DNA of 64,000 bases from a virus (taxonomy: Duplodnaviria > Caudoviricetes), in the IMG/VR virus record IMGVR_UViG_3300025840_004398; one strand, 5' to 3'. The notes beneath the pieces were generated by a model. The model had not been told where the DNA came from, ran no database searches, and saw only the letters and a list, made by a program, of their open reading frames with translations. Of this stretch, positions 24,137 to 54,720 are shown in pieces (the stretch's first letter is position 1; each line of letters starts with the position of its first letter). Made by a program: the position numbers and the translations under genes.

Positions 24137-24994
24137 ATGGAATACATCTCTTTAGAAAATATAAGAAATAAATACCCAGAAGAACTTTCTGTATCTCAAA
24201 AATATACAAGAAGAGGAAACTCTATTGTGTATAGTGGTAAGAGTGAATATTCAAATACAATTAATTTAGATTTTGATGTATCTGGTATAAACACAGTACC
24301 AAATAGTTCATTTAAATTTATTGTAGATATTGGGGGTTCTTTGTATACCTCTCCTGATTTTTTGAATTTATTACAAAATGCACAACGAGAAAACAACCCA
24401 TACTTTCAGAAAAAAACCGTTCCTATTGTAAAAATAAATTTAGGTGAAGCTACTACTCAAATTAGTGACCAATCTACGGCTGAGAAATATGCAGAAGTAT
24501 CTGTAACTAACAATTTAAATTTTGGTGATACAACAAATAAAATATTACAACATATAGATTGGCTGATTAGTGACCAAAATGAAGGACTTAGAGACATTAA
24601 GTCCGGTGGTAATAGAGTTTATGGAGATTATAAATTGAATACGAGTCAATATAATATTGAGAGTGATAGTGGTCTTGGATTCGAGTTTACAGATGCACTA
24701 GAAAGTGGATTGGGGGAAACAGCTGAAACTAAAAACATTGTAGTTCCTGATACATCTACACAAGAAACATCAATATCAAAAAGAGAAAATATTCAACCCC
24801 CACCTGTTTACATACCCATAAAAAGAAAAACAGATTTTGATTTTTTAAGTGGAGGTAGAAATACAGGTCTAAGACAATTATCAGACCCAACTGGCTTAGA
24901 TAGAACCGGACTAAGAGATGCGTATGATACTGGAGATTTTGGTCCACTTGGAGCAATGTTTGATAATGGGGAATTCGGTTCATTTGATTTTTAA
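24137..24994 (+). CDS. hypothetical (probably late) protein carrying the GLDRTGLR..YDTGD.GPL motif
   Basis: ORF track; motif shared with 53152..54720. Confidence 0.8.
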   Translation: MEYISLENIRNKYPEELSVSQKYTRRGNSIVYSGKSEYSNTINLDFDVSGINTVPNSSFKFIVDIGGSLYTSPDFLNLLQNAQRENNPYFQKKTVPIVKINLGEATTQISDQSTAEKYAEVSVTNNLNFGDTTNKILQHIDWLISDQNEGLRDIKSGGNRVYGDYKLNTSQYNIESDSGLGFEFTDALESGLGETAETKNIVVPDTSTQETSISKRENIQPPPVYIPIKRKTDFDFLSGGRNTGLRQLSDPTGLDRTGLRDAYDTGDFGPLGAMFDNGEFGSFDF

Positions 24995-25020
24995 GAACTG
25001 AAAGAAGAGAGCTTTAGATT

Positions 25021-25371
25021 ATGAGAAAAAGAGCAGTAAGTCTTACTAATTGGAAAAGGTATTTGGATTATGAAAATAATCCAAAACTTATCCCTTTTAT
25101 AAAATCTCGTGGTAATGAGGTGTTTTGGCAAATTTCTCAAAACGTATGGAAATATAATGGTAGGGGGCTGTCATCACTAACTATGATTATACATGAAAAT
25201 GCACCCTATGCTATTAATATACCAAAAAAAGAATATTTTGAAGTTATGAATTATGCTTTGAGATTTTTTGAAAAGAGAGAAGATTATAAAAAATGTCAAA
25301 GTATAATAGAATGGTTGGATAATATGAAGGAAAATGATAAAAAGAAAATAAAAAAAATTAAACTTATATAA
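25021..25371 (+). CDS. hypothetical protein with UVR-like motif
   Basis: EKREDYKKCQSI; ends KKIKLI. Confidence 0.75.
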   Translation: MRKRAVSLTNWKRYLDYENNPKLIPFIKSRGNEVFWQISQNVWKYNGRGLSSLTMIIHENAPYAINIPKKEYFEVMNYALRFFEKREDYKKCQSIIEWLDNMKENDKKKIKKIKLI

Positions 25372-25377
25372 GGGTTA

Positions 25378-25385
25378 TATTTATA
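25378..25385 (+). promoter_or_regulatory. candidate late-promoter motif TATTTATA
   Basis: intergenic, before 25406. Confidence 0.4.
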
Positions 25386-25405
25386 TTAGAATATAAAACA
25401 TTTTT

Positions 25406-26146
25406 ATGAAGATATTGAAGTATTGGAATAAAGATTCGTTTGAAATTACTAATTACAAATGGTTTTTATCTGACAGAAAAAATAAAACCTTCACTACCAG
25501 TGGTTCTGATAACTCCAATCAAAACAAATACACATATAATAAACTTGGATTTAGAGGAGACTCGATTCCATTAAGTGGTAAGAAATTAATGGCAGTGGGA
25601 TGTTCTCACACCGAAGGTATTGGCGTCAATGATGATGAAACTTGGCCATATTACCTATCAAGATTATTAAACTTTTCCCATATAAACTTTGGATTTACAG
25701 GAAGAAGTAACGACTACATAGCTAGGTGTGTACTTTCTTTTGTAGAAGAAATAAACCCAGACCTAATCTGTATAATGTATTCTTATCCAGAAAGAAGAGA
25801 ATATTACACTAACAGTGGTGGGATAGAATCATATCATCCTAATCCATGGGGTTGGTTTTTAGAAAATGAGAAAGAATTTAAATCAATAACTAATATATCT
25901 AACGATAACAATAATTTTATAAATTGGTATAAAAATCATCTACTAATAAAAAACTATTTACAAAATAAAAAAATACCATTTGTTTGGAATGGTAAATTTT
26001 TAAACACAGAATATAGCGATGAGTTCAGATTTGATGGTAATTATGATATCGAATATGGTAATCACGCAACTTCAATACAAAATAAAATATACGCTAACGA
26101 ATTATATAATTTTATAAAAGAAAGAGAATATGCCGGAGAACATTGA
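25406..26146 (+). CDS. SGNH-like protein
   Basis: NKLGFRGD, AVGCSHTEGIGV...TWPYYL, NFGFTGRSNDYIAR. Confidence 0.75.
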   Translation: MKILKYWNKDSFEITNYKWFLSDRKNKTFTTSGSDNSNQNKYTYNKLGFRGDSIPLSGKKLMAVGCSHTEGIGVNDDETWPYYLSRLLNFSHINFGFTGRSNDYIARCVLSFVEEINPDLICIMYSYPERREYYTNSGGIESYHPNPWGWFLENEKEFKSITNISNDNNNFINWYKNHLLIKNYLQNKKIPFVWNGKFLNTEYSDEFRFDGNYDIEYGNHATSIQNKIYANELYNFIKEREYAGEH

Positions 26147-26792
26147 GAAAAACCCACCAAAGGGTAAAGTTAAATTTAACTTAACTCTTTCAGAAGAACA
26201 AAAAGAAGCAAAAGCAAATATCTTATATCACCCATATAATTTTATATTGGGTAAAGCTGGTAGTGGTAAAACACTCCTAGCGGTACAAGTTGCATTAGAT
26301 ATGTTTTTCACAAGACAGATAAACAAAATCATTATAACAAGACCAACTGTATCCAATGAAGATAATGGATATTTACCTGGTTCTCTTGATGAAAAGATGG
26401 AGCCTTGGTTAGTTCCTATTCGTTCTAATATGAGAAAGGTTTATAACAAACCTATGATATTAGAAAAGATGGAAAGAGAAGATAATATTGAGTTGGTATC
26501 ACTATCACACTTTAGAGGAAGAACTTTTGAAAATGCATGTGTGATTGTAGATGAATTCCAAAACTTAACTAAACAACAATTAGGAATGGTATTGGGTAGG
26601 TTGGGTAAACAATCCACAATGATTCTTACAGGTGACCCACAACAAATTGATTTAAAGTTTAATAATGATTCCGCGATACATGAAGTTCCAAAATTAAAAC
26701 CATCTCAATATGTATATTCGGTATCATTAAAAGATAATCATAGACACGAAGCGTTGGATGAGTTATTGAAATTATTAAATGAATATTCATAA
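26130..26792 (+). CDS. phoH: PhoH family ATPase
   Basis: GKAGSGKT, GYLPGSLDEKMEPW, RGRTF, DEFQN, GDPQQID, RH. Confidence 0.95.
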   Translation: MPENIEKNPPKGKVKFNLTLSEEQKEAKANILYHPYNFILGKAGSGKTLLAVQVALDMFFTRQINKIIITRPTVSNEDNGYLPGSLDEKMEPWLVPIRSNMRKVYNKPMILEKMEREDNIELVSLSHFRGRTFENACVIVDEFQNLTKQQLGMVLGRLGKQSTMILTGDPQQIDLKFNNDSAIHEVPKLKPSQYVYSVSLKDNHRHEALDELLKLLNEYS

Positions 26793-27847
26793 TGAATCGG
26801 TTAAATGAATACATATGTGCAGTTCCATTTGATTCCCTTGAAGTACATGACAAGAGGAACTTTCTTTGTTGTGCGTCTTGGTTAACAAAACATTTACCTG
26901 AAGGTGCATCTGTCTATGATTCTTTTAACTCACAAGAAGCTAAAGATGTAAGAGACTCTATGATAGATGGTTCATATAGGTATTGTGATGAAAATCAATG
27001 TCCTTACTTAAAAATGTTTAAGAATGGTACTGCCGCTCCAATCTATCATAAAGATAAGTTATCTGAAGATTTAAAAGAACGAGTTGAGAGACATAAAAAA
27101 GGACTTGAAATAAAACCAACAGTAGTTCAATTTTCTATGGATAGAACTTGTAATTTAAAGTGTCCATCTTGTAGACTTGATTTAATAGTTGCGGACAGTC
27201 ATAAAATAAAACAAGTAAAAGCTCATATACAAGAGATAGAAGATACATACGCTGACAGTATTAAAACACTATATATAACAGGAACGGGAGACCCATTTGT
27301 ATCGGTTGGATTCAGAGATTTTCTTAGAAATTTCGATAAATCTAAATACCCCAACTTAGATACCATACATCTTCACACAAATGCCACTAAATGGAATAAA
27401 GAAATGTGGGAGAGTATGCCAAATGTACATGAGTTTGTACATTCAGCTGAAATATCAATAGATGCTGCAACAAAATACACATATGAGAACGAAACAAGAA
27501 TCGGTGGTGATTGGGATGAACTAATTGAAAATTTACATTTTATATCTAAACTACCAAATCTAAAAAGAGTAAAAACTTCATTTGTTGTACAAGACACTAA
27601 TTACAAAGAAATGAAATTGTTTTATGATACAATGACTTCTATATTTGAAAAAAAAACAAAAGTATTTTTTGGTAGAATAAATAATTGGGATACCTTTACT
27701 GAAGATGAATTTGAACAAAAAAAAGTATGGGACTCAAACCATCCTTATTACAATGATTTTGTAAAAGAAGTAAACTCAGTACTTCCTGCGTATAATTGTT
27801 TTCATAATCTTGAAGAATTTTTATATAAAAAATCTAATTTAATTTAA
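26792..27847 (+). CDS. radical SAM protein with N-terminal SPASM/twitch-like domain
   Basis: CAVPF...LCCASW...CDENQCP then DRTCNLKCPSC, TGTGDPF; ends KKSNLI. Confidence 0.9.
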   Translation: MNRLNEYICAVPFDSLEVHDKRNFLCCASWLTKHLPEGASVYDSFNSQEAKDVRDSMIDGSYRYCDENQCPYLKMFKNGTAAPIYHKDKLSEDLKERVERHKKGLEIKPTVVQFSMDRTCNLKCPSCRLDLIVADSHKIKQVKAHIQEIEDTYADSIKTLYITGTGDPFVSVGFRDFLRNFDKSKYPNLDTIHLHTNATKWNKEMWESMPNVHEFVHSAEISIDAATKYTYENETRIGGDWDELIENLHFISKLPNLKRVKTSFVVQDTNYKEMKLFYDTMTSIFEKKTKVFFGRINNWDTFTEDEFEQKKVWDSNHPYYNDFVKEVNSVLPAYNCFHNLEEFLYKKSNLI

Positions 27848-27868
27848 CTAAAAATAATTTACTTTTTA

Positions 27869-27914
27869 TTTGGAAATCTCGATTTTTTTTCGTATATTTA
27901 CTATGTAAATGATT
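27869..27914 (+). promoter_or_regulatory. sigma-A type promoter, extended variant
   Basis: TTTG 27869, 20-nt spacer, TATATTTA 27893; 30-nt identity with 13351-13380. Confidence 0.8.
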
Positions 27915-27922
27915 GATAAGAT

Positions 27923-28129
27923 ATGAAAAAGTTATTACAAAAGATAGAATCCAAAATACTCACTAAGTTATTTACAAGATGGGTAAACAATGAATTCGAT
28001 ACTGAACTATTAGAATTAACTAAGATGACTATTCAAAATAGAGAGATACTTGTAAAAAGTATGATTGATAGGGCTAACTACAAACCAATATTGGGATTTC
28101 ACTCTCATTTAAAAAAAAACATAAAATAA
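27923..28129 (+). CDS. hypothetical protein
   Basis: ORF track; lies between two promoters. Confidence 0.75.
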   Translation: MKKLLQKIESKILTKLFTRWVNNEFDTELLELTKMTIQNREILVKSMIDRANYKPILGFHSHLKKNIK

Positions 28130-28170
28130 TTTGGTAAATACAAATAATCTTCGTATATTTACAATGTAAA
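28130..28170 (+). promoter_or_regulatory. sigma-A type promoter, extended variant
   Basis: TTTG 28130, 20-nt spacer, TATATTTA 28154, then CAATGTAAAT. Confidence 0.8.
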
Positions 28171-28178
28171 TAAGTGAT

Positions 28179-28661
28179 ATGACACAAAAGAAAATAGTTT
28201 ACATTGACATGGATGGTGTCCTTGTTGATTTTGGTGCTGCAATTCAAGATTGGTTCGACAAACATCCACATTTAGTAGAGAGATACAAAGAGTTTCCTGA
28301 CCATATACAAGGTCTATTCAGAAACCCACCACCAATCGATGGTGCAATCGAAGCAGTAAAGAAACTACATGAAAGTGGTAAGTATGAATTGTTCATCGCA
28401 ACTTCGGCACCTTGGGGTAATGCTGGTTCTGCAATGGATAAGAGATTGTGGATTGAGGACCATTTTGGTAATTTGTTCCACAAAAAAATGTTTATCACTC
28501 ATAGAAAAGATTTACTTCTTGGTGATTATCTAATTGATGATAGAACCAAGAATGGGGCTGGTGAGTTTAGCGGAGAACTTCTTCAGTTTGGTATAAATTG
28601 GGAAGATGGAAAAGAGGGCCAGTTCCCCAACTGGCAATCAATCTTAGATTACCTTTTATGA
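28179..28661 (+). CDS. 5'(3')-deoxyribonucleotidase (NT5C, HAD)
   Basis: YIDMDGVLVDF, IATS, KRLWIEDHF, LIDDR. Confidence 0.9.
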   Translation: MTQKKIVYIDMDGVLVDFGAAIQDWFDKHPHLVERYKEFPDHIQGLFRNPPPIDGAIEAVKKLHESGKYELFIATSAPWGNAGSAMDKRLWIEDHFGNLFHKKMFITHRKDLLLGDYLIDDRTKNGAGEFSGELLQFGINWEDGKEGQFPNWQSILDYLL

Positions 28662-29101
28662 AAAACGATAAGTTAGGATTTTTAGATTACCTTATTTTAG
28701 TTTTATTGTTAGGTGTATTGATTCTTTCAACATCATGTACGCAAGAAGGTGTTATACCATTTGAACCTACTTTAGAATTAGATGCAAGATTACCACATGA
28801 TACTAATGGATATTATCATCTAAAACTAAATCCAAACACAAACCAAACCATACATAGAATTGATGGTAGGGTTACCAATATATTAGAACCAACAAAAGTC
28901 AGTTTTAGTTCAAATTTATCTTGGTTATTTATGGGAGAATCCGTACCAACATCTAATTTTAGTTCTTGGGCAACTCCAGATGACCCAAGTATATCAAATG
29001 TAATCGCACCCATTTATGGCATGAGAACTGATACATTAACTCTTGTTTGTAGAGTTAATGAATGGGATATCATACAAAAACTAAATATTGTATTAGAATG
29101 A
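28658..29101 (+). CDS. hypothetical lipoprotein
   Basis: hydrophobic stretch then STSC; start reassigned to 28658. Confidence 0.75.
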   Translation: MKNDKLGFLDYLILVLLLGVLILSTSCTQEGVIPFEPTLELDARLPHDTNGYYHLKLNPNTNQTIHRIDGRVTNILEPTKVSFSSNLSWLFMGESVPTSNFSSWATPDDPSISNVIAPIYGMRTDTLTLVCRVNEWDIIQKLNIVLE

Positions 29102-29418
29102 TTGAATACCCCTCGACACCAATAACAGAAGAAACCTTTGAAAGACAAGGATGGGAGATGATAGTAGAAAAAGAAGAAATAGATGGAGAGGTTGATGAGT
29201 ATTACTACTGGGTCTTACCTCTACCAAAAGATAATCCTGACCCTAACTGTTTTAAACTTATTTCATCTAATAATGATGATTATAAGGAAATCGAATTATT
29301 GAAAGAGGGAGAATATATAGTAGAAATAAATGAATCATATGGACTTGGATTTTGTTATTCAGAAGAAGAATTAGAAATTCTTTATAGAGCTTTAACAAAA
29401 TCAGAAATAGAAGATTGA
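29098..29418 (+). CDS. acidic hypothetical protein
   Basis: start reassigned to ATGA-coupled 29098. Confidence 0.8.
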   Translation: MIEYPSTPITEETFERQGWEMIVEKEEIDGEVDEYYYWVLPLPKDNPDPNCFKLISSNNDDYKEIELLKEGEYIVEINESYGLGFCYSEEELEILYRALTKSEIED

Positions 29419-29479
29419 CATATTGTCATGTTATATGTTTACAAAACTGACAAAATGTCATCTTATATGTTGACAAATA
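29416..29479. promoter_or_regulatory. tandem TGACA-N3-TGTCA palindromes upstream of hsp20
   Basis: TGACAtatTGTCA 29416-29428 and TGACAaaaTGTCA 29448-29460 inside an imperfect 32-bp direct repeat. Confidence 0.7.
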
Positions 29480-29536
29480 CGATTGGTATGAATTTGGTAA
29501 TATATAAATCGAAGTTTAATTTAAAAAAGGAAAATT

Positions 29537-29917
29537 ATGTACATTGCAACATTCGACAGATTATTTGACTCAGTATGGAATGACCCATTCATTTCAGAAG
29601 CGGTAACAAAACAAAGAAAAACTTATGGAAACTTCGATGTAGAAGTTTTAGAAAATGGGAAGCAACAAGTTACAATTAACACTATTGGACATAACCCAAA
29701 GGATATTACAGTAGATGTAACTGAAGAAGAAATTACAGTTAAAGCAAAGAAGGGAGAGGATAAATCTCGTTTCGTAAAGGATATCGATTTAACTTTTACA
29801 GTTGGTTCTGATTATGATGGAACTAAATCTGAGGCTAAATTCGAAAATGGATTACTCACTCTCCTAATTGATAAGAAGGTAAATAAAAAGGCAAAGACCC
29901 TAAAAATTTCTTATTAA
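29537..29917 (+). CDS. hsp20: small heat-shock protein (Hsp20/alpha-crystallin)
   Basis: GHNPKDITVDV, AKFENGLLTL, C-terminal LKI motif. Confidence 0.88.
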   Translation: MYIATFDRLFDSVWNDPFISEAVTKQRKTYGNFDVEVLENGKQQVTINTIGHNPKDITVDVTEEEITVKAKKGEDKSRFVKDIDLTFTVGSDYDGTKSEAKFENGLLTLLIDKKVNKKAKTLKISY

Positions 29918-29940
29918 TCATATCCGAGTAAATTGATGGA

Positions 29941-29966
29941 AGGGGGTGGTAACACTCCCTTTTTTT
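29941..29966 (+). terminator. intrinsic terminator
   Basis: AGGGGGTG-GTAA-CACTCCCT plus T-run. Confidence 0.85.
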
Positions 29967-29975
29967 ATATCATAA

Positions 29976-29983
29976 TATTTATA
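29976..29983 (+). promoter_or_regulatory. candidate late-promoter motif TATTTATA
   Basis: directly after the terminator, before ATG 30008. Confidence 0.5.
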
Positions 29984-30007
29984 AGTAAACAATAAAATAT
30001 ATCATAT

Positions 30008-30187
30008 ATGAAAGATATCTATATAGATAGAGTTGCAAATAACATCGATTCTTGTGTTACCAAAGTAAATGTGGTAAAAGGAATGATTACAGGAGAAAGA
30101 CCTGCTGACCCAAAACAGGCAGAATCTTATCTACAACAAATCGTTAAAGTCCTTGAAGATATCAAGGAGGTTGTGGAACGAGGATGA
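30008..30187 (+). CDS. small hypothetical protein (59 aa)
   Basis: read by hand: MKDIYIDRVANNIDSCVTKV...GERPADPKQAE... Confidence 0.8.
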   Translation: MKDIYIDRVANNIDSCVTKVNVVKGMITGERPADPKQAESYLQQIVKVLEDIKEVVERG

Positions 30188-30190
30188 TAA

Positions 30191-31495
30191 ATGAAATTCA
30201 GAACTCTTTTATTAGGACTATCAGCATTATTTGTAGCGTTTAATGCAGCATTCTTTTCGGTAAGTGGTTTATCGAAACTATTTGCTGGTGCTTCACTTTC
30301 AGTAATTCTAATGGCAAGTTCACTTGAAGCAGCAAAACTAATTACTGCTGGTTATCTATACAACTATTGGGAAAAGATTAATAAAGCTTTTAGAATTTAT
30401 TTATCTATTGGAGTTTTAATTTTAGTACTAATAACTTCATTGGGTATCTATGGATTCTTAACTGCTGCATTCCAAGATACCTTTAATACTTTTTCGGTAA
30501 CTGAAAAACAAAAAGCATTTTTAGAACAAAAAGAAGAATTCTGGCAATCAGATGTAACAAGATATGATGAAGAACTTAAAAGAATTTCTAATAATATTAG
30601 TACTCTCAGTAATGCAAAAACTTCCTCAATCCAAGTACGGGACACATCGGTTGTGGGCGGTGTTAGACAAACCATCTCCACTACTGAACTTAGGTTATCT
30701 CAACAACGTATTGCAGTGGAAGAGGAAAATCGTAAAGAAGTTCAAGCGAAAAGAGAAGTAGCAGCAGATTCTCTACAATCTATCCAACTTAGGATATTAG
30801 ATTTAGAAACTGATACAGATGTATCTGCAGAACTTGGACCTCTTCAATATCTTAGTGGATTATTAGATAAACCAATGGACCAGATTATCAACTGGTTTAT
30901 TCTAATCATCATCTTTGTATTTGACCCACTTGCAGTTGCACTTGTAATTGCATTTAACAATGCGGTTAAAGTTGATAAAGGTGAGAAAGATAAAAAGAAA
31001 ATAGTTCAGAAACGAGAACTCTATGGTGAATCTGATATAGATAATCGTAAAGAATCCGATTTGTGGTCTAATACTTTACAAGATGGATTGGAAGATGAAG
31101 AGTGGGATGAATCACATGGGTTAGACCAAGTACTAAATGATATGGTGGAAGATATCGAAGTAGAATCAGAAGTAGTTGAATCTGATGAATCTTATTTAGA
31201 TTTGGATGGGGATGGGATTATATCAGATGAAGAAAGATTGGCAGATACCGATGGAGATGGTAAAATATCAGAAGAAGAATACAATGAATGGTATGAAAAT
31301 AACGGTGGTTGGAAAGAACCATATAAAGGAAGAGATTATTGGTTTCATCCAAAATTTGATTGGTCAAAAAGAGAACGATGGATAAATAACCAAGGTGCTA
31401 TTAAATATTGGGTAAATAATAGAGGTGGTAGTTATACAAAAGTACAAGAATACAAAAATGAATACCCAACAGATTTCTCATCAAAAACTTATTAA
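30191..31495 (+). CDS. membrane protein with coiled coil and two EF-hand-like loops
   Basis: 3 N-terminal TM, coiled coil, TM (FVFDPLAV), then DLDGDGIISDEE and DTDGDGKISEEE. Confidence 0.8.
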   Translation: MKFRTLLLGLSALFVAFNAAFFSVSGLSKLFAGASLSVILMASSLEAAKLITAGYLYNYWEKINKAFRIYLSIGVLILVLITSLGIYGFLTAAFQDTFNTFSVTEKQKAFLEQKEEFWQSDVTRYDEELKRISNNISTLSNAKTSSIQVRDTSVVGGVRQTISTTELRLSQQRIAVEEENRKEVQAKREVAADSLQSIQLRILDLETDTDVSAELGPLQYLSGLLDKPMDQIINWFILIIIFVFDPLAVALVIAFNNAVKVDKGEKDKKKIVQKRELYGESDIDNRKESDLWSNTLQDGLEDEEWDESHGLDQVLNDMVEDIEVESEVVESDESYLDLDGDGIISDEERLADTDGDGKISEEEYNEWYENNGGWKEPYKGRDYWFHPKFDWSKRERWINNQGAIKYWVNNRGGSYTKVQEYKNEYPTDFSSKTY

Positions 31496-31496
31496 T

Positions 31497-31841
31497 ATGA
31501 ATAACGCAGTAACACTTACAGAATCAGCAGAAAAAAAGTTATTAGAAACTTTTCAAGAAGAAGGAAAATCAACAGATACACATCATCTTAGAGTTGGTGT
31601 GGCAAGTGGTGGTTGTAGTGGATTGCAATACTACATGGAAATCCACAAAAAAGAAGATAGAGATGAAACTGATGAAGTTACAACCTATAATGAAATTGAA
31701 GTAGTTGTAGATAGACAATCATTCTTTTACCTACTTGGTTCTCAATTAAACTTTTCATCAGGTCTTAATGGAAAGGGATTTGAATGGTCTAATCCAAATG
31801 CACAAAGAACTTGTGGATGTGGTGAAAGTTTTGCTTTATAA
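31497..31841 (+). CDS. iscA: IscA/HesB Fe-S cluster assembly protein
   Basis: LRVGV.SGGCSGLQY, NPNAQRTCGCGESF; start reassigned to 31497. Confidence 0.95.
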   Translation: MNNAVTLTESAEKKLLETFQEEGKSTDTHHLRVGVASGGCSGLQYYMEIHKKEDRDETDEVTTYNEIEVVVDRQSFFYLLGSQLNFSSGLNGKGFEWSNPNAQRTCGCGESFAL

Positions 31842-31842
31842 A

Positions 31843-47145: not shown

Positions 47146-47148
47146 AAG

Positions 47149-47721: not shown

Positions 47722-47735
47722 AACTAACAAAGATA

Positions 47736-47743
47736 TATTTATA
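47736..47743 (+). promoter_or_regulatory. candidate late-promoter motif TATTTATA
   Basis: intergenic, before 47769. Confidence 0.5.
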
Positions 47744-47768
47744 TTAAGATAAAAGGAAATTTTACAAA

Positions 47769-48338
47769 ATGGATAACAAACAACTTATAAAAGTAATAAA
47801 AGCACTAGTGGAAGTTGAAGTAGCAAAGAAACATGAAAAGTTTCTTAAAGAACAATTTCCAGCAATACTTGATGAAGCCGTTAAAGGTAAAATGAAAACT
47901 TTGAAAAAAACCACACCAACAAATGTGGTGAGTGAAGAAGTAGACCCCTTTGAAGTGGCAAATCAAGTATTACAAAATGAAAGACAAGAACAACCAAAAA
48001 GACAATTCACTAAAAATGAAGCGTTAAATGAAGTTCTAAATCAAACAAAACCATTCACTAAAGAACAAAGAGCGGGTGGAACACAAGTTAAATCTGTATT
48101 AGATTCATTTCAACCAGTAAATGAAAGTATGGATAAAACAGTTGAGTTTACTCAAGGAGGAGCAGGAGCTGGTTTAGATGGAATGAGAGCTTCAATGGCA
48201 TCACAAATGGGTTATGGTGACCTACAAACAAGTGGTGGAGCTAAAAAAAGTGGATTGGGTGTTCAGACAGGATTACCAGCTTTAGATAGAGTTTTAAACA
48301 GAGATAACTCTGAATTAGTTAAAAGATTTAAAAGATAA
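47769..48338 (+). CDS. conserved phage hypothetical protein
   Basis: ORF track. Confidence 0.8.
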   Translation: MDNKQLIKVIKALVEVEVAKKHEKFLKEQFPAILDEAVKGKMKTLKKTTPTNVVSEEVDPFEVANQVLQNERQEQPKRQFTKNEALNEVLNQTKPFTKEQRAGGTQVKSVLDSFQPVNESMDKTVEFTQGGAGAGLDGMRASMASQMGYGDLQTSGGAKKSGLGVQTGLPALDRVLNRDNSELVKRFKR

Positions 48339-48457
48339 TGATTGAAGGTTTAATCATATTAGTAATGTTAGGTGTTTCTGTATTTACACTTACCAAAAGT
48401 TTAAAGAAAAAGGCTTATGGTGAATGTGGATGTGGGAAGTGCCAATGTGGAGGATAA
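48338..48457 (+). CDS. FeoB-associated-type Cys-rich membrane micro-protein (39 aa)
   Basis: MIEGLIILVMLGVSVFTLTKSLKKKAYGECGCGKCQCGG; TAATG-coupled. Confidence 0.7.
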   Translation: MIEGLIILVMLGVSVFTLTKSLKKKAYGECGCGKCQCGG

Positions 48458-48460
48458 TAA

Positions 48461-48889
48461 GTGGCTTACGAGTTAGGTAGAAAAGTTGTATTAGATACAG
48501 AAGAGTTTGACTCTTATGCATATGGCATTTCATCGCCAACAAAAAGAGGTAATGTTATGTTTGAACAAACATTTACTTCATTTGAAGCTGCTAAATCAAA
48601 TCTTCGTAATTTGTTACTAACAAGACAAGGTGAGAGAGTAATGCAACCTGAATTTGGAACAGGATTACACGAACTTTTATTTGGTCAAATTGATGAAGAT
48701 TTTGAAACAAATATACAAACTACACTAACTGATAGTGTTAGTTTTTGGTTACCTTATATTACTATTGATGAAATAACAATAGAAGCGACTGATGAAATGA
48801 AAGATAAAAACCAAGTTGGTTTAGAGGTTTCTTTTAAGGTTGGAACAGACGAACAAATAAGTACATTAGGAATAACGTTTCAGGGGTAA
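48461..48889 (+). CDS. baseplate wedge protein gp25-like
   Basis: AAKSNLRNLLLTRQGERVMQPEFGTGL..LLF; FWLPYI; GTG start with GGAGGA SD. Confidence 0.9.
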   Translation: MAYELGRKVVLDTEEFDSYAYGISSPTKRGNVMFEQTFTSFEAAKSNLRNLLLTRQGERVMQPEFGTGLHELLFGQIDEDFETNIQTTLTDSVSFWLPYITIDEITIEATDEMKDKNQVGLEVSFKVGTDEQISTLGITFQG

Positions 48890-48892
48890 AAA

Positions 48893-50908
48893 ATGGCTTT
48901 AAACGCAAGAAATAATACAAGTGGTAGAAATATAAATTATCTTAATAAAGATTTTAATCAATTTAGAGATAATCTTGTTGAATACGCCAAAACGTATTTC
49001 CCACAAACATATACAGATTTTAATGAATCATCACCAGGTATGATGTTTATAGAAATGGCATCTTACTTAGGTGATGTACTTTCTTATTATATAGATGATA
49101 CTTTAAAAGAATCTTTTATAACAACCGCAACTGATAGGGAGAACATAGTGGCCTTATCAAACATAATGGGATATAAACCAAAAGTTACATCACCAGCGAT
49201 TACAACTATTTCTGTATATCAACTGGTACCAAGTAAACTTAAAAGTGGTCAAAATACAGAATACGAACCTGATAGTAGATTTTACTTGAGAATAAAAGAA
49301 GGTATGTTGGTAGAATCAACTGAAAGTGGAGTCACATTTAGGACTTCTGAATTGGTTGATTTTAATGAATCTTATGATAGAGAAATTTCAATTTATCAAA
49401 GAGATGAAAATGGAAAACCTGAATTCTATCTTGTAAAAAAACAGGTTAAAGCTTTGTCTGGTCTTTTAAAAACAGTAGAAGTTACTGCAAACGCTTCTGA
49501 TTCATTTCAAACATTCACTCTTGGTGAAACTAATATAATCAACATTCATGATGTTAGAGATTCAAATGGAAACAAGTGGTATGAAGTTCCTTATCTTGCA
49601 CAAGAATCGGTTTATATAGATTATCCAAATACAGAACAATATGACAAAGACTTATCTCAATTTAAAGATTCTGTTTCAAACATATTAAAAGTATTAAAGA
49701 CTTCAAGAAGATTTGTAAAACAAATAAATCCTGATAATACAACATCAATAGTATTTGGAGGAGGAACCGCTTCTGATGATGAAACTTTAATACCTAATTT
49801 TAAAAATGTTGGTTTGGGATTGAATTCTTCTATTGATAGATTAAATGACTCATTTGACCCATCAAACTTTTTAAAAACAAAATCATATGGTCAATCCCCA
49901 AGTGGAACTATGACAATTTCATATTTAGTTGGTGGTGGGATTGATTCAAATGTATCCAAAGGACAACTTGTTAAAATAGAATCAATTTCTTATGATGATG
50001 ATGACGGTATATTCACACCAAGTGAATTGAGTTTATATAAATTTTGCAAATCCTCGGTTGCAGTAGACAACGAAATTCCAGCAACAGGTGGGAGAGGTCC
50101 TGAAACTATAAATGAGATACGAGAGAATTCATTAGCAATGTTTGGTTCTCAAAATAGAGCGGTAACTCGTAAAGATTATCAAGTAAGAGTACTGTCTTTA
50201 CCTGGAAAATATGGTGGTGTTGCAAAGGCATATTGTGCACCTGATGGGGAGTTGGATAATAATTCTCCTTCCTCAATATTATCAAATCCACAATCCCTAC
50301 AACAATTTTCTGATTTGGTTATTTCTTTAAAAGAAAAAGACTTATCAGAATCACAAATACAAGAAGAAATAAATAAATTTTTAGTTGGTAAAAAATCTAA
50401 CTTAGATGAAAAAAATAACCCATTTGCTATCAATTTATATCTACTTGGATATGATAATAATAACAAATTAACTAATCTAAACAGAGCAGTTAAAGAAAAC
50501 GTAAAAACTTATTTAGGTGAGTATAGACTTTTAACTGATGGACTAAATATTTTAGATGGATTCATAATAAATATTGGAGTTGATTTTGAAATAAGAGTGT
50601 ATAGTGGATATAATAATAGACAAGTAATGACCTCTTGTATAAGAGAAATAAAACAATTTTTTAATATTAATAATTGGGGATTCAATACACCTATAAATTT
50701 ATCTGAATTAGAATTGGTAATTGCTGGAGTTGAGGGAGTACAATCTGTTCCAAAATGTGACGTTACTAATAAATGTGGTGGAAATTATTCAAATGTTAAA
50801 TATAATATTTCAGCGGCAACTAAAAACAAATTAGTTTACCCATCACTTGACCCATCGGTATTTGAATTAAAATTTCCTGATAAGGACATAAAGGGGAGGG
50901 TTGTATAA
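48893..50908 (+). CDS. baseplate wedge protein gp6-like
   Basis: DFNQFRDNL..YAK.YFP..YTDFN..SPG, GDVLSYY.D, GGRGPET..EIR, QNRAVT..DY. Confidence 0.88.
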   Translation: MALNARNNTSGRNINYLNKDFNQFRDNLVEYAKTYFPQTYTDFNESSPGMMFIEMASYLGDVLSYYIDDTLKESFITTATDRENIVALSNIMGYKPKVTSPAITTISVYQLVPSKLKSGQNTEYEPDSRFYLRIKEGMLVESTESGVTFRTSELVDFNESYDREISIYQRDENGKPEFYLVKKQVKALSGLLKTVEVTANASDSFQTFTLGETNIINIHDVRDSNGNKWYEVPYLAQESVYIDYPNTEQYDKDLSQFKDSVSNILKVLKTSRRFVKQINPDNTTSIVFGGGTASDDETLIPNFKNVGLGLNSSIDRLNDSFDPSNFLKTKSYGQSPSGTMTISYLVGGGIDSNVSKGQLVKIESISYDDDDGIFTPSELSLYKFCKSSVAVDNEIPATGGRGPETINEIRENSLAMFGSQNRAVTRKDYQVRVLSLPGKYGGVAKAYCAPDGELDNNSPSSILSNPQSLQQFSDLVISLKEKDLSESQIQEEINKFLVGKKSNLDEKNNPFAINLYLLGYDNNNKLTNLNRAVKENVKTYLGEYRLLTDGLNILDGFIINIGVDFEIRVYSGYNNRQVMTSCIREIKQFFNINNWGFNTPINLSELELVIAGVEGVQSVPKCDVTNKCGGNYSNVKYNISAATKNKLVYPSLDPSVFELKFPDKDIKGRVV

Positions 50909-51966
50909 TGTATCACTTTGTAACAGCATCCAAAGATGCAACGATTTACTTACAACAACCAACTCAGAATACTGGCTTGGATGAAATCTTAGAAGTTTCT
51001 AAAACTTATTATGGAAACTTAAAAGATGTTGCTCATTCACTTATTAAATTTGATACAACTCAATTATCAACTTTAATTACAAGTGGTGAGGTAACCATGT
51101 CATCTGCCGAATTAATCCTTCGAGAGTGTGAATCAAGTGAAATTCCGTTGGATTATACAATTTATGCATATCAAGTTTCTCAATCATGGGATATGGGAAT
51201 TGGAACTCGCTTTGATGATATTACAACAGATGGAGTTTCTTGGAATAAAAGAACAACAACTGACAATTGGTTGGGTAATGATTTCGCCGAAGGAACTTCT
51301 GGTTCATTCAATGGTAAGGGTGGTGTTTGGTACACTGGTTCGGTTGCAACACAATCATTCTCATACGAAACATCTGATATTGAAATGGATGTATTAGAAC
51401 CAATGAATACTTGGTTAAGTGGTTCAATTCCAAATGAAGGTTGGATTTTAAAACACGATTCTGCAGTAGAAAATGATACAGATGATTATGGTCAATTAAA
51501 ATTCTTTTCAAAAGAAACAAATACTATTTACCAACCTAAATTAAGAATTGGTTGGGATGATTCTTCGTTCTCTACTGGCTCTTTAACAGAACTTACCGCT
51601 GATGATATTCATGTAACATTCAAAAGATTAAAGACCAGATACAAGCGTGGAAGTAAACCTGAAATCAGAGTTTTCGGTAGAGAGAAGTATCCTCTCAAAA
51701 CATACACCAATCAATACTCTTACACAGATGTAAAATATTTACCATCATCTACTTATTACCAAATAAAAGATATAGTAACAGAAGATGTGATTGTACCGTT
51801 TGGAGATTATACAAAAGTTTCGTGTGATTCAAATGGTAACTTCTTTAAACTCGATTTAACAAATTGGGAATATCAACGAGATTATTATATTGAAATTAAA
51901 GTAGATAGAAATGGTGTAATCGAATATTTCGAAGATAAGGATTTAACTTTCACAATAGAGAAATAA
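50908..51966 (+). CDS. structural protein (DNRLRE-like domain)
   Basis: DATIY..QP.QNTGLDEILEV...SLIKFD; NEGWILK; FFSKET..IYQPKL. Confidence 0.6.
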   Translation: MYHFVTASKDATIYLQQPTQNTGLDEILEVSKTYYGNLKDVAHSLIKFDTTQLSTLITSGEVTMSSAELILRECESSEIPLDYTIYAYQVSQSWDMGIGTRFDDITTDGVSWNKRTTTDNWLGNDFAEGTSGSFNGKGGVWYTGSVATQSFSYETSDIEMDVLEPMNTWLSGSIPNEGWILKHDSAVENDTDDYGQLKFFSKETNTIYQPKLRIGWDDSSFSTGSLTELTADDIHVTFKRLKTRYKRGSKPEIRVFGREKYPLKTYTNQYSYTDVKYLPSSTYYQIKDIVTEDVIVPFGDYTKVSCDSNGNFFKLDLTNWEYQRDYYIEIKVDRNGVIEYFEDKDLTFTIEK

Positions 51967-51969
51967 TAA

Positions 51970-53148
51970 ATGGCAATTGATAATCAATTTAGAATTAATG
52001 AACTCATAAGTAGTGGTTCCGGAGCTATCGTATCAAAAGATAGTATCACTGGAAATCATACCTTTGTGCAAGGTTCTAAAACAATTGTTCTTGGAAAATC
52101 AGAAGGTGGACAAGCTCCATATACACACTTAAAAGGTGAAAGAGATGGGGAGCAGACTGGTAGAATTGAAAAACCAAAATATAACGAAGAAGAGTTAATA
52201 AAGGCAGTTGATACTAAAGTTGATGAATTAATTGGACCTCCAAAGAAACCACAACCTGATGTAGTTCCAAGACCTGTATATGAAGATTTAAGAAGATTAT
52301 ACAACGAAGCCTTAGCTGAAATATCAAGATTAGAAAACTTAGTTAGTGAATTAGAATCAAGAATTGCACAGCTTGAAGCTGAGAATGAGGCTCTTAAAAT
52401 AGAAAACGATTCATTACAATTAAGAACCTCAACTGCGGAAAATGAGGCACAGTCTGCTAATCAAAGATATGGAGATTTATTAAAAGATTTTTCAAACGCT
52501 ATTGTAAAAGGAACACGAGATGCAATAGAAAGGGTATCATTAAAAGCACAAGTAGAAGGTTTAAGAGCACAGAAAGAAACTCTAAGAGAACAATTAAAAT
52601 CTCTTAACCTGATAATTGGTCAGTTACAAGCACAAGTAGAAGCCGAACAAGTTAGACAAGCTGCATCTGAAGCCCTTGAAGGTGTAGTTGGAACATATGA
52701 GCAAAAAACAAATACAGGTTGGAAACTACCTCAGTCTGAAATTAAAAAACAAGATAAACAACTTTATCTTGAAATATGGACTAGAAATAATAAGAATGAT
52801 ATTAGAGTTGTTCAAGGAACCGCTATTAACGTTTATAACTTCAATGAAGAAGAACCACAGACGTTTACTGCGTCAAGTAATGTTTCATGGTTAAGAGTTG
52901 GAGGACCAATTACAGTTCAGCCACGAGAAGGAAATGAAGCTGGTAAAGGTTATATAGGAGTTCAATGGTCAAAAGGACCAAGAACGTCTAAGAGAAAACA
53001 AGAAATACCTGGTACAGTTACAATAACCGCTTCTCCAAGTGGAGAACAACACACTATATCAGCTATTATGTTTAAAGAGGTACAAAGATTAAATAAAGAT
53101 TTTACACAAGGTAGTACACGAAGTGCTGCTGGTTCGGAGAAAAGTTAA
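51970..53148 (+). CDS. structural protein: long coiled coil plus Ig/BACON-like C-terminus
   Basis: heptad region; FTASSNVSWLRV...TVTITAS. Confidence 0.7.
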   Translation: MAIDNQFRINELISSGSGAIVSKDSITGNHTFVQGSKTIVLGKSEGGQAPYTHLKGERDGEQTGRIEKPKYNEEELIKAVDTKVDELIGPPKKPQPDVVPRPVYEDLRRLYNEALAEISRLENLVSELESRIAQLEAENEALKIENDSLQLRTSTAENEAQSANQRYGDLLKDFSNAIVKGTRDAIERVSLKAQVEGLRAQKETLREQLKSLNLIIGQLQAQVEAEQVRQAASEALEGVVGTYEQKTNTGWKLPQSEIKKQDKQLYLEIWTRNNKNDIRVVQGTAINVYNFNEEEPQTFTASSNVSWLRVGGPITVQPREGNEAGKGYIGVQWSKGPRTSKRKQEIPGTVTITASPSGEQHTISAIMFKEVQRLNKDFTQGSTRSAAGSEKS

Positions 53149-53151
53149 TAG

Positions 53152-54720
53152 ATGGCAATTAGTAATTTTAAAAATATAGAAAATACCAAAGGATATTTTG
53201 TCAATGATAGTGATAGAAAAATCTTTGAGAGAGAAGTCTCCAAGGGTTATTTTGGTATGAATATAGGAGATATTATTGAGTTTGTCATATATGATTCAAA
53301 TGATAACATATTACCTCAAGAATCAAGTGGTGGTAAATATGTAAGGTACATAGAATACAACGATGATTCTGAAAAGAAATACTTTGGTAAAGTTCAAAAA
53401 AATAAAACAACATTAAAATCAAACGATTCCGATGAGTTCTTTATTGATACTGAAAAACTAATTACGGAAGCTGGATATAAGAATGGTGTTTTCAAGACTC
53501 AAATATCTCTCTTAAATAGAAGGCTCGGTTCTGAAGATAGAGAGAATGATAAAGTGTGGATACATGAAATTGCTCCCTCTAGAACTGAAATAAGAGTATT
53601 GCCAACAATTGATGATAAAACTGGTAAACCGAATTCTGATTTGGAAGAAAGATATAATTGTTTTATAAATGAAAAAACATTTTACTCAGATTTATCTCCT
53701 TTTATCGATTCTTTTGTTGAACAATTTGATGTAGAAAAGGTTATACGAGATTTTTTAATTTCTAAGGGGGATGTTAAATCTGGACAATCTTACATTAGTT
53801 TAATTAGAGATGAATTTAAAATAGAAAGTTTTGATTTGTTAATTCAACAAATAAGGGATAGATTTATAAAATCTGTTAATTATTATAAACAAAATAGAGA
53901 TTCTAATATTTTATCTAATAACTACGGCCAACCATTAGGAAATACAAAAGGTATTTGTACTGATGTAAATAATATTCTATATGATATTATTAATATAGTA
54001 GGTAATTGTGTTGAATATTCATTGCCAAAAAGAAATGTTCGTTCTGAAAATTCTTTAACCATAGAACAACAAGAAAGTTTAGATAAGGTAAATGATATAT
54101 TAAAAACAGTAACAAGTAATTCCAAATATACATCTACAATACCATCCTCAGTATCCGCTAAAATAGTTGGATGTAAGAACCCATCGGCATCAAATTATAA
54201 TCCTGATGCAGATATACATGATGAGGGATTGTGTGTTTTTATTGAAAAACCACAACCTAAACCACAACCTAAACCACAACCTAAATTACAACCCAAACCA
54301 CGACCTAAACCAGTGGTAATACCACCAAAACCAAAACCTAAACCAGTGGTAATACCAAAACCAAAGGTTGACCCTGATTTCATATTAAATGATTCGGTTG
54401 AGTTTACAAGAGAGGTATTGTCAGAACCAGGTGGTTTAGATAGAACGGGATTGAGAGAAAGATATGATACTGGTGATTATGGACCATTAGCTGCTATTTT
54501 AGAGGAACAGTCAACTCCGATAGTAACTTATACACCACCGGTAGTAAACACACCAATATCAGTTGGTTCTAGATTTTTAAATCCAATTAGTGATACTACA
54601 ACAGTAAGTGGTAGAGCTACCGCCTTGAATAGTGGTCGAAGTCCTTTGACTGAAGAACCGAATTTGTTTAATGAAAGAATAGTTACATCCCAAAAAAGAT
54701 TTTTAAAAGATAGATTTTAA
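53152..54720 (+). CDS. structural protein with GCxNP-type Cys motif, Pro-rich linker and GLDRTGLR motif
   Basis: WIHEIAPSRTEIRV; GCKNPSASNYNPDADIHDEGLCVF; PKPQ repeats. Confidence 0.8.
   Translation: MAISNFKNIENTKGYFVNDSDRKIFEREVSKGYFGMNIGDIIEFVIYDSNDNILPQESSGGKYVRYIEYNDDSEKKYFGKVQKNKTTLKSNDSDEFFIDTEKLITEAGYKNGVFKTQISLLNRRLGSEDRENDKVWIHEIAPSRTEIRVLPTIDDKTGKPNSDLEERYNCFINEKTFYSDLSPFIDSFVEQFDVEKVIRDFLISKGDVKSGQSYISLIRDEFKIESFDLLIQQIRDRFIKSVNYYKQNRDSNILSNNYGQPLGNTKGICTDVNNILYDIINIVGNCVEYSLPKRNVRSENSLTIEQQESLDKVNDILKTVTSNSKYTSTIPSSVSAKIVGCKNPSASNYNPDADIHDEGLCVFIEKPQPKPQPKPQPKLQPKPRPKPVVIPPKPKPKPVVIPKPKVDPDFILNDSVEFTREVLSEPGGLDRTGLRERYDTGDYGPLAAILEEQSTPIVTYTPPVVNTPISVGSRFLNPISDTTTVSGRATALNSGRSPLTEEPNLFNERIVTSQKRFLKDRF
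54247..54366 (+). repeat. 12-nt tandem repeat encoding (KPQP)n plus duplicated KPVVIP
   Basis: AAACCACAACCT x3 plus 2 degenerate copies; AAACCAGTGGTAATACCA x2. Confidence 0.9.

What the first reader, a model, noticed from the sequence alone, without database searches (positions are those of the whole stretch)
24881..54495. 25-aa motif shared by two otherwise unrelated proteins 30 kb apart
Seen: SDPTGLDRTGLRDAYDTGDFGPLGA (24881-24955, in 24137..24994) versus SEPGGLDRTGLRERYDTGDYGPLAA (54421-54495, in 53152..54720), 19/25 identical. Codons differ synonymously (ggc/ggt, acc/acg, cta/ttg), so conservation is at protein level. In both proteins it lies in a low-complexity C-terminal tail after a Pro-rich stretch. 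24137 has its own TATTTATA late-type motif and sits inside the tailoring-enzyme region; 53152 is in the baseplate operon. Inference: a docking, processing or modification-acceptor peptide on virion proteins, and a candidate substrate for the tagged enzymes.
Basis: partly seen in the sequence, partly recalled or inferred. Interest (0 to 1): 0.72.

Follow-up and report, generated by a model that had tools for sequence, protein, structure and literature searches.

The report
Shared tail peptide on two phage proteins
Two otherwise unrelated late proteins of an uncultured aquatic phage end in the same strongly conserved, apparently unstructured peptide module, which related phages swap between genes by recombination; it most likely serves as a common docking handle, but its partner is unknown.

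Summary
P0001 (24137-24994) and P0002 (53152-54720) share 20 of 29 residues (BLASTP E 3e-11; about 21 sd above shuffled tails), with synonymous codon differences.

The 25-residue motif is the core of a larger module of about 45-80 residues that follows a Pro-rich linker. An exhaustive profile search and degenerate DNA scans found it in only two families of uncultured aquatic phages:
- fam1 is small late proteins like P0001. Their N-domain is variable and the module is constant.
- fam2 is baseplate-operon fibre-like proteins like P0002. Their N-terminal 365 residues are constant and the C-terminal cassettes are variable. Only about 9 of 120 carry the module.

There were no hits in 596 Gb of prokaryote genomes, in isolated phages, Pfam or PHROGs.

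The module reassorts independently of its carrier. The window's fam1 module is 92-99% identical in DNA to relatives whose N-domains are about 33% identical in protein.

AlphaFold models it as disordered in both proteins.

Best reading, at 0.4 confidence: a recombining docking peptide on a flexible tether.

The adjacent radical-SAM block is missing from close relatives that keep the module.

This is a new sequence module within a familiar phage design principle, and of moderate interest.

The parts
24137..24994 (+). fam1 gene (P0001, 285 aa): variable N-domain, short linker, C-terminal module
   Evidence: RNA-library contigs cover it at 100% identity
24137..24772 (+). fam1 N-domain (residues 1-212). 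This is a hypervariable cassette. It has no DNA similarity to the close relatives L005 and L020, and 79% to L025
   Evidence: fold unknown
24833..24991 (+). Module copy 1 (residues 233-285), from DFDFL to the C-terminus. It is flavour A, shortened by a 7-codon deletion after RNTG
24881..24955 (+).
24868..25009 (+). DNA patch 92-94% identical to L005, L019 and L020 (99% over the 28 core codons), although their N-domains are about 33% identical in protein. RNA-library contigs of co-occurring strains diverge exactly at 24870 and 24996
23954..24112 (+). 52-aa ORF forming the conserved upstream flank of the fam1 cassette (78-90% DNA identity in all relatives)
24123..24132 (+). TATATTTATA, one of six + strand copies that all lie just upstream of ORF starts; a possible late promoter or initiation element
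53152..54720 (+). fam2 gene (P0002, 522 aa) in the baseplate operon
53152..54237 (+). fam2 conserved N-terminal region (residues 1-362). It ends in a two-Cys GCxxPxAxNYNPxA...C element with C341 and C361 invariant
54247..54366 (+). Pro-rich KP/QP linker (residues 366-405). Its repetitive DNA is where one public contig is misjoined
54367..54507 (+). Module copy 2 (residues 406-452), from VDPDFILNDS to AAILEE; flavour B
54421..54495 (+).
54508..54717 (+). 70-residue tail after the module, shared only with the closest fam2 orthologs

Best explanation
The motif is the core of a mobile C-terminal protein module of about 45-80 residues, with no fixed structure of its own, held on a Pro-rich (polyproline-like) tether. 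Its invariant pattern is G-L-x-x-(T/A)-G-L-x3-Y-D-T-G-x-x-G-P-(L/M)-x-x-(I/M)-(L/F).

It most likely acts as a constant docking peptide that folds on binding one conserved partner, probably a virion component. In fam1 it would anchor an exchangeable N-terminal domain. In fam2, whose N-terminus is the conserved part, it is one of many alternative distal cassettes.

**Shown**
- The module exists and is conserved at the protein level.
- It is confined to two families.
- It reassorts by recombination at or near the linker.

**Inferred**
- That it binds something.
- That the partner is shared by both carriers.
- That both carriers are virion proteins.
For: 1. **Conservation is decoupled from the carrier.** fam1 pairs with under 30% N-domain identity have on average 86% identical cores, up to 100%. 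Pairs with more than 80% identical N-domains can have cores only 57% identical.
2. **Constant flanks, swapped centre.** L005 and L020 are 83-97% identical in DNA to the window in core genes. They match at 90% in the upstream 52-aa ORF and at 92-94% in the module, but not at all in the fam1 N-domain. This is the layout of attachment region plus specificity region known from phage adhesins (PMC3157838) and from Hoc (PMC10385173).
3. **Purifying selection.** Older copies keep the residues with many synonymous changes, for example 10 of 23 identical codons against L013 and L027, and 8 of 20 between the two window copies.
4. **Disorder.** AlphaFold gives pLDDT 35-42 for the module in P0001 and 31-43 in P0002, while parts of both N-domains reach 80-90. 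This fits a peptide that is disordered until bound.
5. **Specificity.**
   - All 26 metagenome contigs and both viral contigs matching the degenerate pattern are fam1 or fam2.
   - The exhaustive profile search of 1.84 billion representatives adds no third family.
   - There are no matches in 596 Gb of prokaryote genomes.
6. **fam2 looks like a fibre-type protein.** It lies behind gp25-like and gp6-like genes. Its relatives carry BACON domains (24 of 68) and the endosialidase chaperone domain (2 of 68) in the same C-terminal slot.
7. **The fam1 module works without an intact fam2 module.** The 83-kb relative that carries the same fam1 module has only a vestige in fam2. This argues for a third partner rather than obligate module-to-module pairing.
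Against: - No partner is identified.
- Neither carrier has been shown to be in virions, and no isolate exists.
- Some close fam1 orthologs (P0004, P0005, P0007-P0009) lack the module or carry a degenerate form. Two long relatives (G003; G004, rated 100% complete) lack it in both genes and across the whole record, so the function is dispensable or replaceable.
- In P0002 the module is internal, with 70 residues after it. In fam1 it is terminal or nearly so.
- The same data fit a host-directed ligand equally well.
Confidence: 0.4

Rival explanations
1. Host-directed ligand. The tethered peptide binds a conserved host surface or periplasmic component, as an adhesion or capture epitope at the end of a stiff Pro-rich rod. 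It would not bind a phage protein.
For: - In fam2 the module occupies the distal slot that otherwise holds BACON-type putative binding domains.
- In P0085 and P0086 it lies beyond a BACON domain at the far end of a second Pro-rich linker.
- High conservation across phages with different cargo domains would fit a conserved host target.
Against: - In fam1 the module is the constant part and the N-domain the variable part. For a host-facing element one expects the reverse.
- No host protein carries or mimics the motif: there are no hits in prokaryote genomes.
Confidence: 0.2
2. Modification acceptor. The invariant Thr, Tyr and Asp residues of the core (and the repeated T-G dipeptides of flavour A) are sites for the phage's glycosyltransferases, radical-SAM enzymes or oxygenases.
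For: - The window is rich in radical-SAM enzymes.
- An unchecked earlier scan note reports a large glycan operon elsewhere in the genome whose acceptor is unknown.
- The module is exposed and disordered.
- Flavour A has up to seven T-G dipeptides.
Against: - Adjacency to an enzyme gene is not conserved. The radical-SAM block 22002-23954 is absent from L005 and L020, which keep the module.
- Module-less G003 has a radical-SAM gene right upstream of fam1.
- The carriers are 285-760 residue proteins, not short precursors.
- There is no conserved Cys.
- The extra T-G repeats are missing from flavour B and from P0001 itself.
Confidence: 0.15
3. Assembly element. The module nucleates oligomerisation or registration of fibre chains from the C-terminus, as a foldon or a C-terminal intramolecular chaperone does.
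For: - It is C-terminal in a fibre-like family whose other members carry the endosialidase chaperone domain in the same slot.
- In five fam2 relatives it lies directly before a self-cleaving-type Hint domain, which would leave it as the mature C-terminus.
Against: - What precedes it are Pro-rich linkers and globular domains, not coiled coils or beta-helices that need registration.
- fam1 is small and shows no fibre features.
- There is no Pfam match to known chaperone domains.
Confidence: 0.12
4. No function as a protein. The sequence is kept only as a DNA recombination linker, or it is a passive hitch-hiker of recent gene conversion.
For: - Recombination junctions do coincide with the module edges.
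- The window's fam1 copy was exchanged recently.
Against: - The two window copies are only 74% identical in DNA, yet 20 of 28 residues are identical.
- Older fam1 copies differ at about 40% of identical-residue codons.
- That is purifying selection on the peptide, not on the DNA.
Confidence: 0.05

Closest known systems
[quoted passage not shown]
   Same: - A constant C-terminal attachment part carries variable outward-facing N-terminal domains through linkers.
- Some phages reuse the same attachment domain on a second, different protein.
   Different: - Hoc's binding part is a folded domain with a known site on gp23 hexamers. Here the module is shorter and is modelled as disordered.
- There is no sequence relation.
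- One carrier sits in the baseplate operon.
- No binding has been shown.
T-even gp38 adhesin and the gp37 tip: attachment domain plus hypervariable segments bounded by conserved glycine-rich motifs (PMC3157838)
   Same: - Short, Gly-rich, highly conserved motifs sit beside hyperplastic sequence.
- Recombination happens in or near the conserved motifs and creates chimeras.
   Different: - In gp38 the attachment domain is N-terminal, and the Gly-rich motifs form the core of a folded specificity domain.
- Here a single C-terminal module is shared by two non-homologous genes 29 kb apart.
Shared anchor modules of multi-tailspike phages and cohesin-dockerin type docking (from general knowledge, not tested here)
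   Same: One docking element is placed on several different cargo proteins so that they plug into a common socket.
   Different: - Those anchors are folded domains, usually N-terminal in tailspikes.
- The module's loops do not fit the EF-hand or dockerin calcium-loop consensus (sequence inspection only).
Hedgehog-type and bacterial intein-like (BIL) Hint domains
   Same: - 32 of about 120 fam2 relatives end in a roughly 145-residue Hint-like domain.
- Gly lies at -1, Cys at position 1, the domain ends in ...THN, and a non-nucleophile follows.
- In five of them the module is the segment directly before the G|C junction.
   Different: - The window's own P0002 has no Hint domain.
- The Pfam Hint matches are below the curated cut-off.
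- Self-cleavage is untested.

Membership tests
Any catalogued protein family (Pfam-A, PHROGs) | Significant profile match over the module or its carriers | tested here: not met
   - P0001 and P0002 have no Pfam family at E up to 1.
- The only PHROG match is an unannotated family, to P0002, at E 0.037.
- The 12 fam1 N-domains have no Pfam match better than E 0.067.
- A fam1 N-domain profile against PDB sequences gives nothing below E 0.7.
T4-type baseplate or fibre operon protein (for P0002) | Gene lies in a conserved order with recognised baseplate genes | tested here: met
   - The gp25 family gene lies at 48461-48889 (E 5e-14).
- The gp6-like wedge gene lies at 48893-50908 (PHROG 219, E 1e-24).
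- Two ORFs and then 53152 follow.
- The same order is seen in L001-L003, L037 and L038.
T4-type baseplate or fibre operon protein (for P0002) | Fold related to a solved baseplate or fibre protein | tested here: inconclusive
   - The model has mean pLDDT 59.8.
- The best PDB matches reach Z 6.4 on a generic helical bundle.
- BFVD gives only an uncharacterised homolog.
Hoc-like decoration protein | Constant C-terminal attachment part with variable N-terminal domains | tested here: met
   This is a resemblance of architecture only.
Hoc-like decoration protein | Homology to the Hoc capsid-binding domain; binding to capsid hexamers | not testable with these tools
   - There is no Pfam hit of any kind.
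- The capsid genes lie outside the window.
RiPP-like precursor with a dedicated radical-SAM/SPASM maturase | Conserved gene adjacency of substrate and maturase | tested here: not met
   - The radical-SAM block 22002-23954 is absent from L005 and L020, which keep the module.
- A radical-SAM gene lies next to a module-less fam1 in L035.
RiPP-like precursor with a dedicated radical-SAM/SPASM maturase | Short precursor with leader and core, and conserved modifiable residues | tested here: not met
   - The carriers are 285-763 residues long.
- The core has no Cys; its invariant residues are G, L, Y, D, T and P.
Peptidase_S74-type intramolecular chaperone or foldon | Profile match to the chaperone domain | tested here: not met
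   - P0001, P0002, P0036 and P0039 have no match.
- The domain occurs in 2 of 68 other fam2 members as an alternative cassette.
Hint / BIL autoprocessing domain (fam2 relatives only) | Cys1 block A, C-terminal (T/S)HN block, and a profile match | tested here: inconclusive
   - The sequence blocks are present in 32 relatives.
- The Pfam Hint and Hom_end_hint matches score 16-21 bits, below the cut-offs of 30-32.
- The domain is absent from the window's P0002.
Retropepsin-type aspartic protease (D-T-G) | A roughly 100-residue fold with hydrophobic-hydrophobic-D-T/S-G-A and a second conserved block | tested here: not met
   Only the tripeptide matches. The module is 45-80 residues, is modelled as disordered, and has no Pfam hit.

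The most novel reading that the evidence does not exclude
The module is the recognition handle of a covalent plug-in system. In fam2 variants where it sits directly before a Hedgehog-type Hint domain, the Hint domain would form a thioester at the Gly that follows the module. The module would position that activated C-terminus on a partner, either a virion protein or the phage-made glycan, so that the fibre is ligated to it. Terminal copies such as fam1 would use the same socket non-covalently.
Probability: 0.05. Interest if true: 0.85.

Novelty: new variant of a known kind. Interest (0 to 1): 0.42.

Why it matters
- **Possible plug-and-socket system.** If the module is a portable docking peptide, it defines such a system in a large, uncultured group of aquatic phages, probably phages of Bacteroidota. 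It would show how these phages swap outward-facing domains without touching the particle scaffold.
- **Annotation.** It gives a concrete handle for annotating two families that each have at least dozens (fam1) to hundreds (fam2) of metagenomic members and no assigned function.
- **Partner search.** It gives a starting point for finding the partner.
- **Display tag.** A short, transferable attachment peptide could serve as a display tag, as Hoc and Soc do for T4.
- **If it is ordinary.** The case still documents, base by base, cassette exchange between conserved flanks in environmental phage populations.

Tried and rejected
- **Module-to-module binding.** Complex prediction with the P0002 module region against the P0001 tail, each with its own alignment, returned 'no answer' with score 0.00. 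This is no evidence either way.
- **Folds.**
  - The P0001 model (mean pLDDT 48.5) gave no PDB match above Z 3.3.
  - The P0002 model gave only generic helical-bundle matches and one uncharacterised viral homolog.
  - ESM Atlas features for the fam1 N-domain pointed to tail-tube families at 0.80-0.83. That range is often reached by shuffled proteins, and no profile search supported it. I keep it as a lead only.
  - The Atlas had nothing for the fam2 N-domain or for the module alone.
- **Apparent third family.**
  - P0029 is a chimeric contig end. Its contig is 100% identical to the window from 54254 onward and is misjoined inside the Pro-rich repeat.
  - P0033 has a different N-terminus on the module of a normal fam1 gene (L011, L022) and is probably another assembly artefact. 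I did not follow this up.
  - P0030 is a low-complexity false positive.
- **Coupled tails in module-less genomes.** The fam1 and fam2 tails of G003 and G004 share nothing above shuffled level.
- **Isolated phages.** tblastn of P0001, P0002 and P0034 against 50,697 phage records gave no match.
- **Co-occurrence in one genome.** This could be tested in only four genomes: the window (both genes carry the module), the 83-kb relative (fam1 intact, fam2 vestige only; an error-prone assembly) and G003 and G004 (neither gene). That is too few for statistics.
- **Rejected by inspection.**
  - EF-hand or dockerin loop.
  - LysM.
  - TonB box.
  - Aspartic-protease DTG.
  - T4-type head-protease site. 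I-L-E occurs in some copies but is not conserved, and the protein is not a head protein.
- **RNA-library contigs.** They cover fam1, but such libraries can contain DNA, so I do not claim transcription.


Full report
**1. The observation**

Window 24137-24994 translates to a 285-residue protein (P0001) and 53152-54720 to a 522-residue protein (P0002).
- BLASTP aligns residues 248-276 with 423-451: 20 of 29 identical, 25 of 29 similar, no gaps, E 3e-11. No other segment is significant.
- The local alignment score of the two tails is 139, against 30.6 +/- 5.2 for 300 shuffles.
- At the DNA level the copies are about 74% identical. Eight of the 20 identical residues use different codons.
- A six-frame regex scan and two profile HMMs find no third copy in the window.

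**2. The genome**

- The window has 30.8% G+C and almost all genes lie on the + strand.
- It encodes a gp25-family baseplate wedge protein (48461-48889) and a gp6-like wedge protein (48893-50908).
- It also encodes PhoH, dCMP deaminase, a helicase, a carbamoyltransferase and several radical-SAM enzymes.
- The gp6-like protein is 38-41% identical to proteins of Microcystis phage Mel-JY01 and of the Flavobacterium 'immuto' phages.
- Neither P0001 nor P0002 has any match among 50,697 isolated phage records.
- Public runs that hold the stretch are freshwater, estuary and aquatic metagenomes.
- Earlier unchecked notes of this scan call it a large uncultured phage of aquatic Bacteroidota. I used that only as context.

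**3. The motif is the core of a larger module**

Invariant positions are G-L-x-x-(T/A)-G-L-x3-Y-D-T-G-x-x-G-P-(L/M).

There are two flavours.
- Flavour A is found in most fam1 proteins. It has a longer N-terminal part and ends in GPLGAMF plus 2-14 residues.
- Flavour B is found in fam2 and in part of fam1. It begins (P)KVDPDF(I/L)LN(D/N)S and ends in GPMxxIL(D/E).

P0001 has a shortened flavour A and P0002 has flavour B. In both families the module follows a Pro-rich linker.

**4. Who carries it**

- *Exhaustive profile search.* A module profile was searched against 1.84 billion cluster representatives and returned eight clusters.
  - Five are fam1.
  - One (P0029) is a chimeric contig end of the window's own phage.
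  - One (P0033) is probably an artefact.
  - One (P0030) is a repeat-protein false positive.
- *Metagenome contigs.* A degenerate DNA pattern for the core found 26 metagenome contigs. Every one is a real copy: 23 in fam1 genes and 3 in fam2 genes. No contig has two copies.
- *Viral contigs.* The looser pattern found two IMG/VR contigs.
- *Prokaryote genomes.* The pattern found nothing in 596 Gb of prokaryote genomes.

The module is therefore confined to two protein families of one group of uncultured phages.

**5. The two families have opposite polarity**

*fam2 (like P0002)*
- It has at least 298 relatives.
- The first 365 or so residues are conserved. They end in an invariant two-Cys element, and the Pro-rich linker follows.
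- The C-terminus is a cassette slot.
  - 24 of 68 sampled members carry a BACON domain.
  - 2 of 68 carry the endosialidase chaperone domain.
  - Others carry Gly-rich tails.
- 32 of about 120 end in a Hint-like domain.
- The module occurs in 5 of 119 relatives by the strict profile (plus P0028 and P0002 itself), and in 9 of about 120 by a broader profile that also picks up divergent forms.
- Orthologs 77% identical in the N-terminal part (L002) and 46% identical (L003) lack it. L001 (77%) has it.

*fam1 (like P0001)*
- It is the reverse: the N-domain is variable and the module is the constant part.
- Pairs with under 30% N-domain identity average 86% core identity.
- A caveat applies. Its word index favours distant homologs that share the motif. 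and the DNA comparisons do not depend on that search.

**6. Recombination**

- L005 and L020 are close relatives of the window: dCMP deaminase is 96-97% and PhoH 92% identical in DNA, and long blocks are 83-91% identical.
- Around fam1 they match the upstream 52-aa ORF at 88-90% and the module at 92-94% (24868-25009; 99% over the 28 core codons). The N-domain in between shows no DNA similarity and about 33% protein identity.
- L025, a more distant phage, shows the converse. It matches the window's N-domain at 79% but has a different linker and an older copy of the module, with 9 synonymous differences in 24 identical codons.
- The window's P0001 is thus a chimera.
  - It has a clade-I N-domain up to F-L-S-G-G-R.
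  - From N-T-G onward it has a clade-II module lacking seven codons.
- Contigs from RNA libraries of the same habitat contain co-occurring strains that match the window only between 24870 and 24996. The unmatched part of one reads as the longer clade-II form.
- The (P)KVDPDF(I/L)LN start of flavour B is the same in fam1 and fam2 copies, so exchange between the two genes happened at the end of the Pro-rich linker.

**7. Structure**

AlphaFold with family alignments gives low confidence for the module in both proteins: pLDDT 35-42 in P0001 and 31-43 in P0002. Parts of the N-domains reach 80-91. Fold searches did not identify either N-domain.

**8. Does the fam1 module need a fam2 module?**

- *Module-less relatives.* Two long relatives have both genes about 33 kb apart and no module in either gene or anywhere in the record. 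They are G003 (101.7 kb) and G004 (276 kb, rated complete). Their two tails share nothing.
- *The 83-kb relative.* I walked along the 83-kb contig that carries P0017, whose fam1 module is almost DNA-identical to the window's.
  - I reached its fam2 gene.
  - After the poly-Pro stretch it has only a vestige, then a Hint-like domain.
  - The vestige is a G-D-Y-G-P-M-Q-S string in another frame, bracketed by two compensating indels.
  - That assembly has many frameshifts, so the vestige could be partly an error.
  - There is no intact module, and no first half of the module in any frame.
- *Counts.* fam1 copies outnumber fam2 copies 23 to 3 among the metagenome hits.

Obligate module-to-module pairing is therefore unlikely, and a third, shared partner is more likely.

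**9. Interpretation**

- *Best-supported reading: a portable docking peptide on a flexible or stiff tether.*
  - The evidence rests on the following.
    - Selection acts on the peptide.
    - The peptide is constant while its carriers vary.
    - The peptide is modelled as disordered on its own.
    - fam2 lies in a structural-gene context.
    - fam1 shares an upstream 10-mer with baseplate-region genes.
  - The binding itself, the identity of the partner and the presence of fam1 in the virion are inferences.
- *Substrate hypothesis.*
  - It is not excluded.
  - It lost its one piece of local support when the neighbouring radical-SAM block proved to be an indel unrelated to module presence.
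- *Other rivals.* The host-ligand and assembly-element readings remain open.
- *DNA-only role.* It is contradicted by the synonymous-site pattern.

**10. Comparison with known systems**

- The architecture resembles T4 Hoc, which has a constant C-terminal capsid-binding domain and variable Ig domains. Some phages reuse that domain on a second protein (PMC10385173).
- It also resembles the T-even gp38 and gp37 adhesin system, where conserved Gly-rich motifs flank hypervariable segments and are preferred recombination sites (PMC3157838).
- It is a member of neither family. There is no sequence or fold relation. The module is much shorter and apparently unstructured, and it is shared by two non-homologous genes.
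- I rate it a new variant of a known design principle, built on a sequence module that is in no library I searched.

Noticed in passing
fam2 relatives P0085, P0086, P0093, P0096, P0101-P0150 (not the window's P0002); also L044:14796 onward: About 32 of 120 fam2 proteins end in a roughly 145-residue Hint-like domain. Gly, often poly-Gly, lies at -1; the domain starts C-L-V-G-N-T, ends ...I-L-T-H-N, and is followed by a non-nucleophile and a short tail. This looks like a Hedgehog/BIL-type self-cleaving C-terminus on a baseplate fibre family. The Pfam Hint matches are below the cut-off.
   Followed up: partly
window 23954-24112: A 52-aa ORF upstream of fam1 is unusually conserved in DNA (78-90% identity) across all relatives, including those whose fam1 N-domain is unalignable. 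It has no Pfam match. Together with the module it forms the constant flanks of the fam1 cassette.
   Followed up: partly
window 24123, 25376, 45448, 47734, 59657, 61603: TATATTTATA occurs six times, always on the + strand and 4-35 nt upstream of an ORF start. 1.7 copies are expected and 2 of 100 shuffles reach six. It may be a late promoter or an initiation-region element. At 24137 it would imply a nearly leaderless message.
   Followed up: partly
window 21960-23075: A radical-SAM protein has the SPASM-type Fe-S domain (residues 22-86) before the radical-SAM core (130-280), the reverse of the usual order. The block 22002-23954 is an indel relative to the close relatives L005 and L020.
   Followed up: partly
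window 54169-54237; L038:1501-3225: An invariant two-Cys element, G-C-x-x-P-x-A-x-N-Y-N-P-x-A ... C, closes the conserved fam2 N-terminal region just before the Pro-rich linker. It is duplicated in tandem in the G004 ortholog. AlphaFold models it with pLDDT around 81-83.
   Followed up: no
L039:1-927 (ENA contig k141_287716, 89 kb): A public contig of the same phage is 100% identical to the window from 54254 onward, but it is joined to unrelated sequence inside the KP/QP repeat. This produces a spurious 224-aa protein (P0029) in the protein collections.
   Followed up: yes
L043 and L044 (JGI contig Ga0610007_02382, 83 kb): This contig of a close relative has many frameshifted genes, for example the carbamoyltransferase in three pieces. 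That suggests an error-prone assembly, and gene calls from it should be read with care.
   Followed up: partly
L005:11330-13234: A 634-aa gene two genes downstream of fam1 in the relative carries an intein-splicing domain. The window has no counterpart at that position.
   Followed up: no
window 51970-53148: The 392-aa protein just upstream of fam2 has a long central coiled coil and a conserved N-terminus. It is conserved next to fam2 in all relatives and may be a whisker-like or fibre-like partner of fam2.
   Followed up: no
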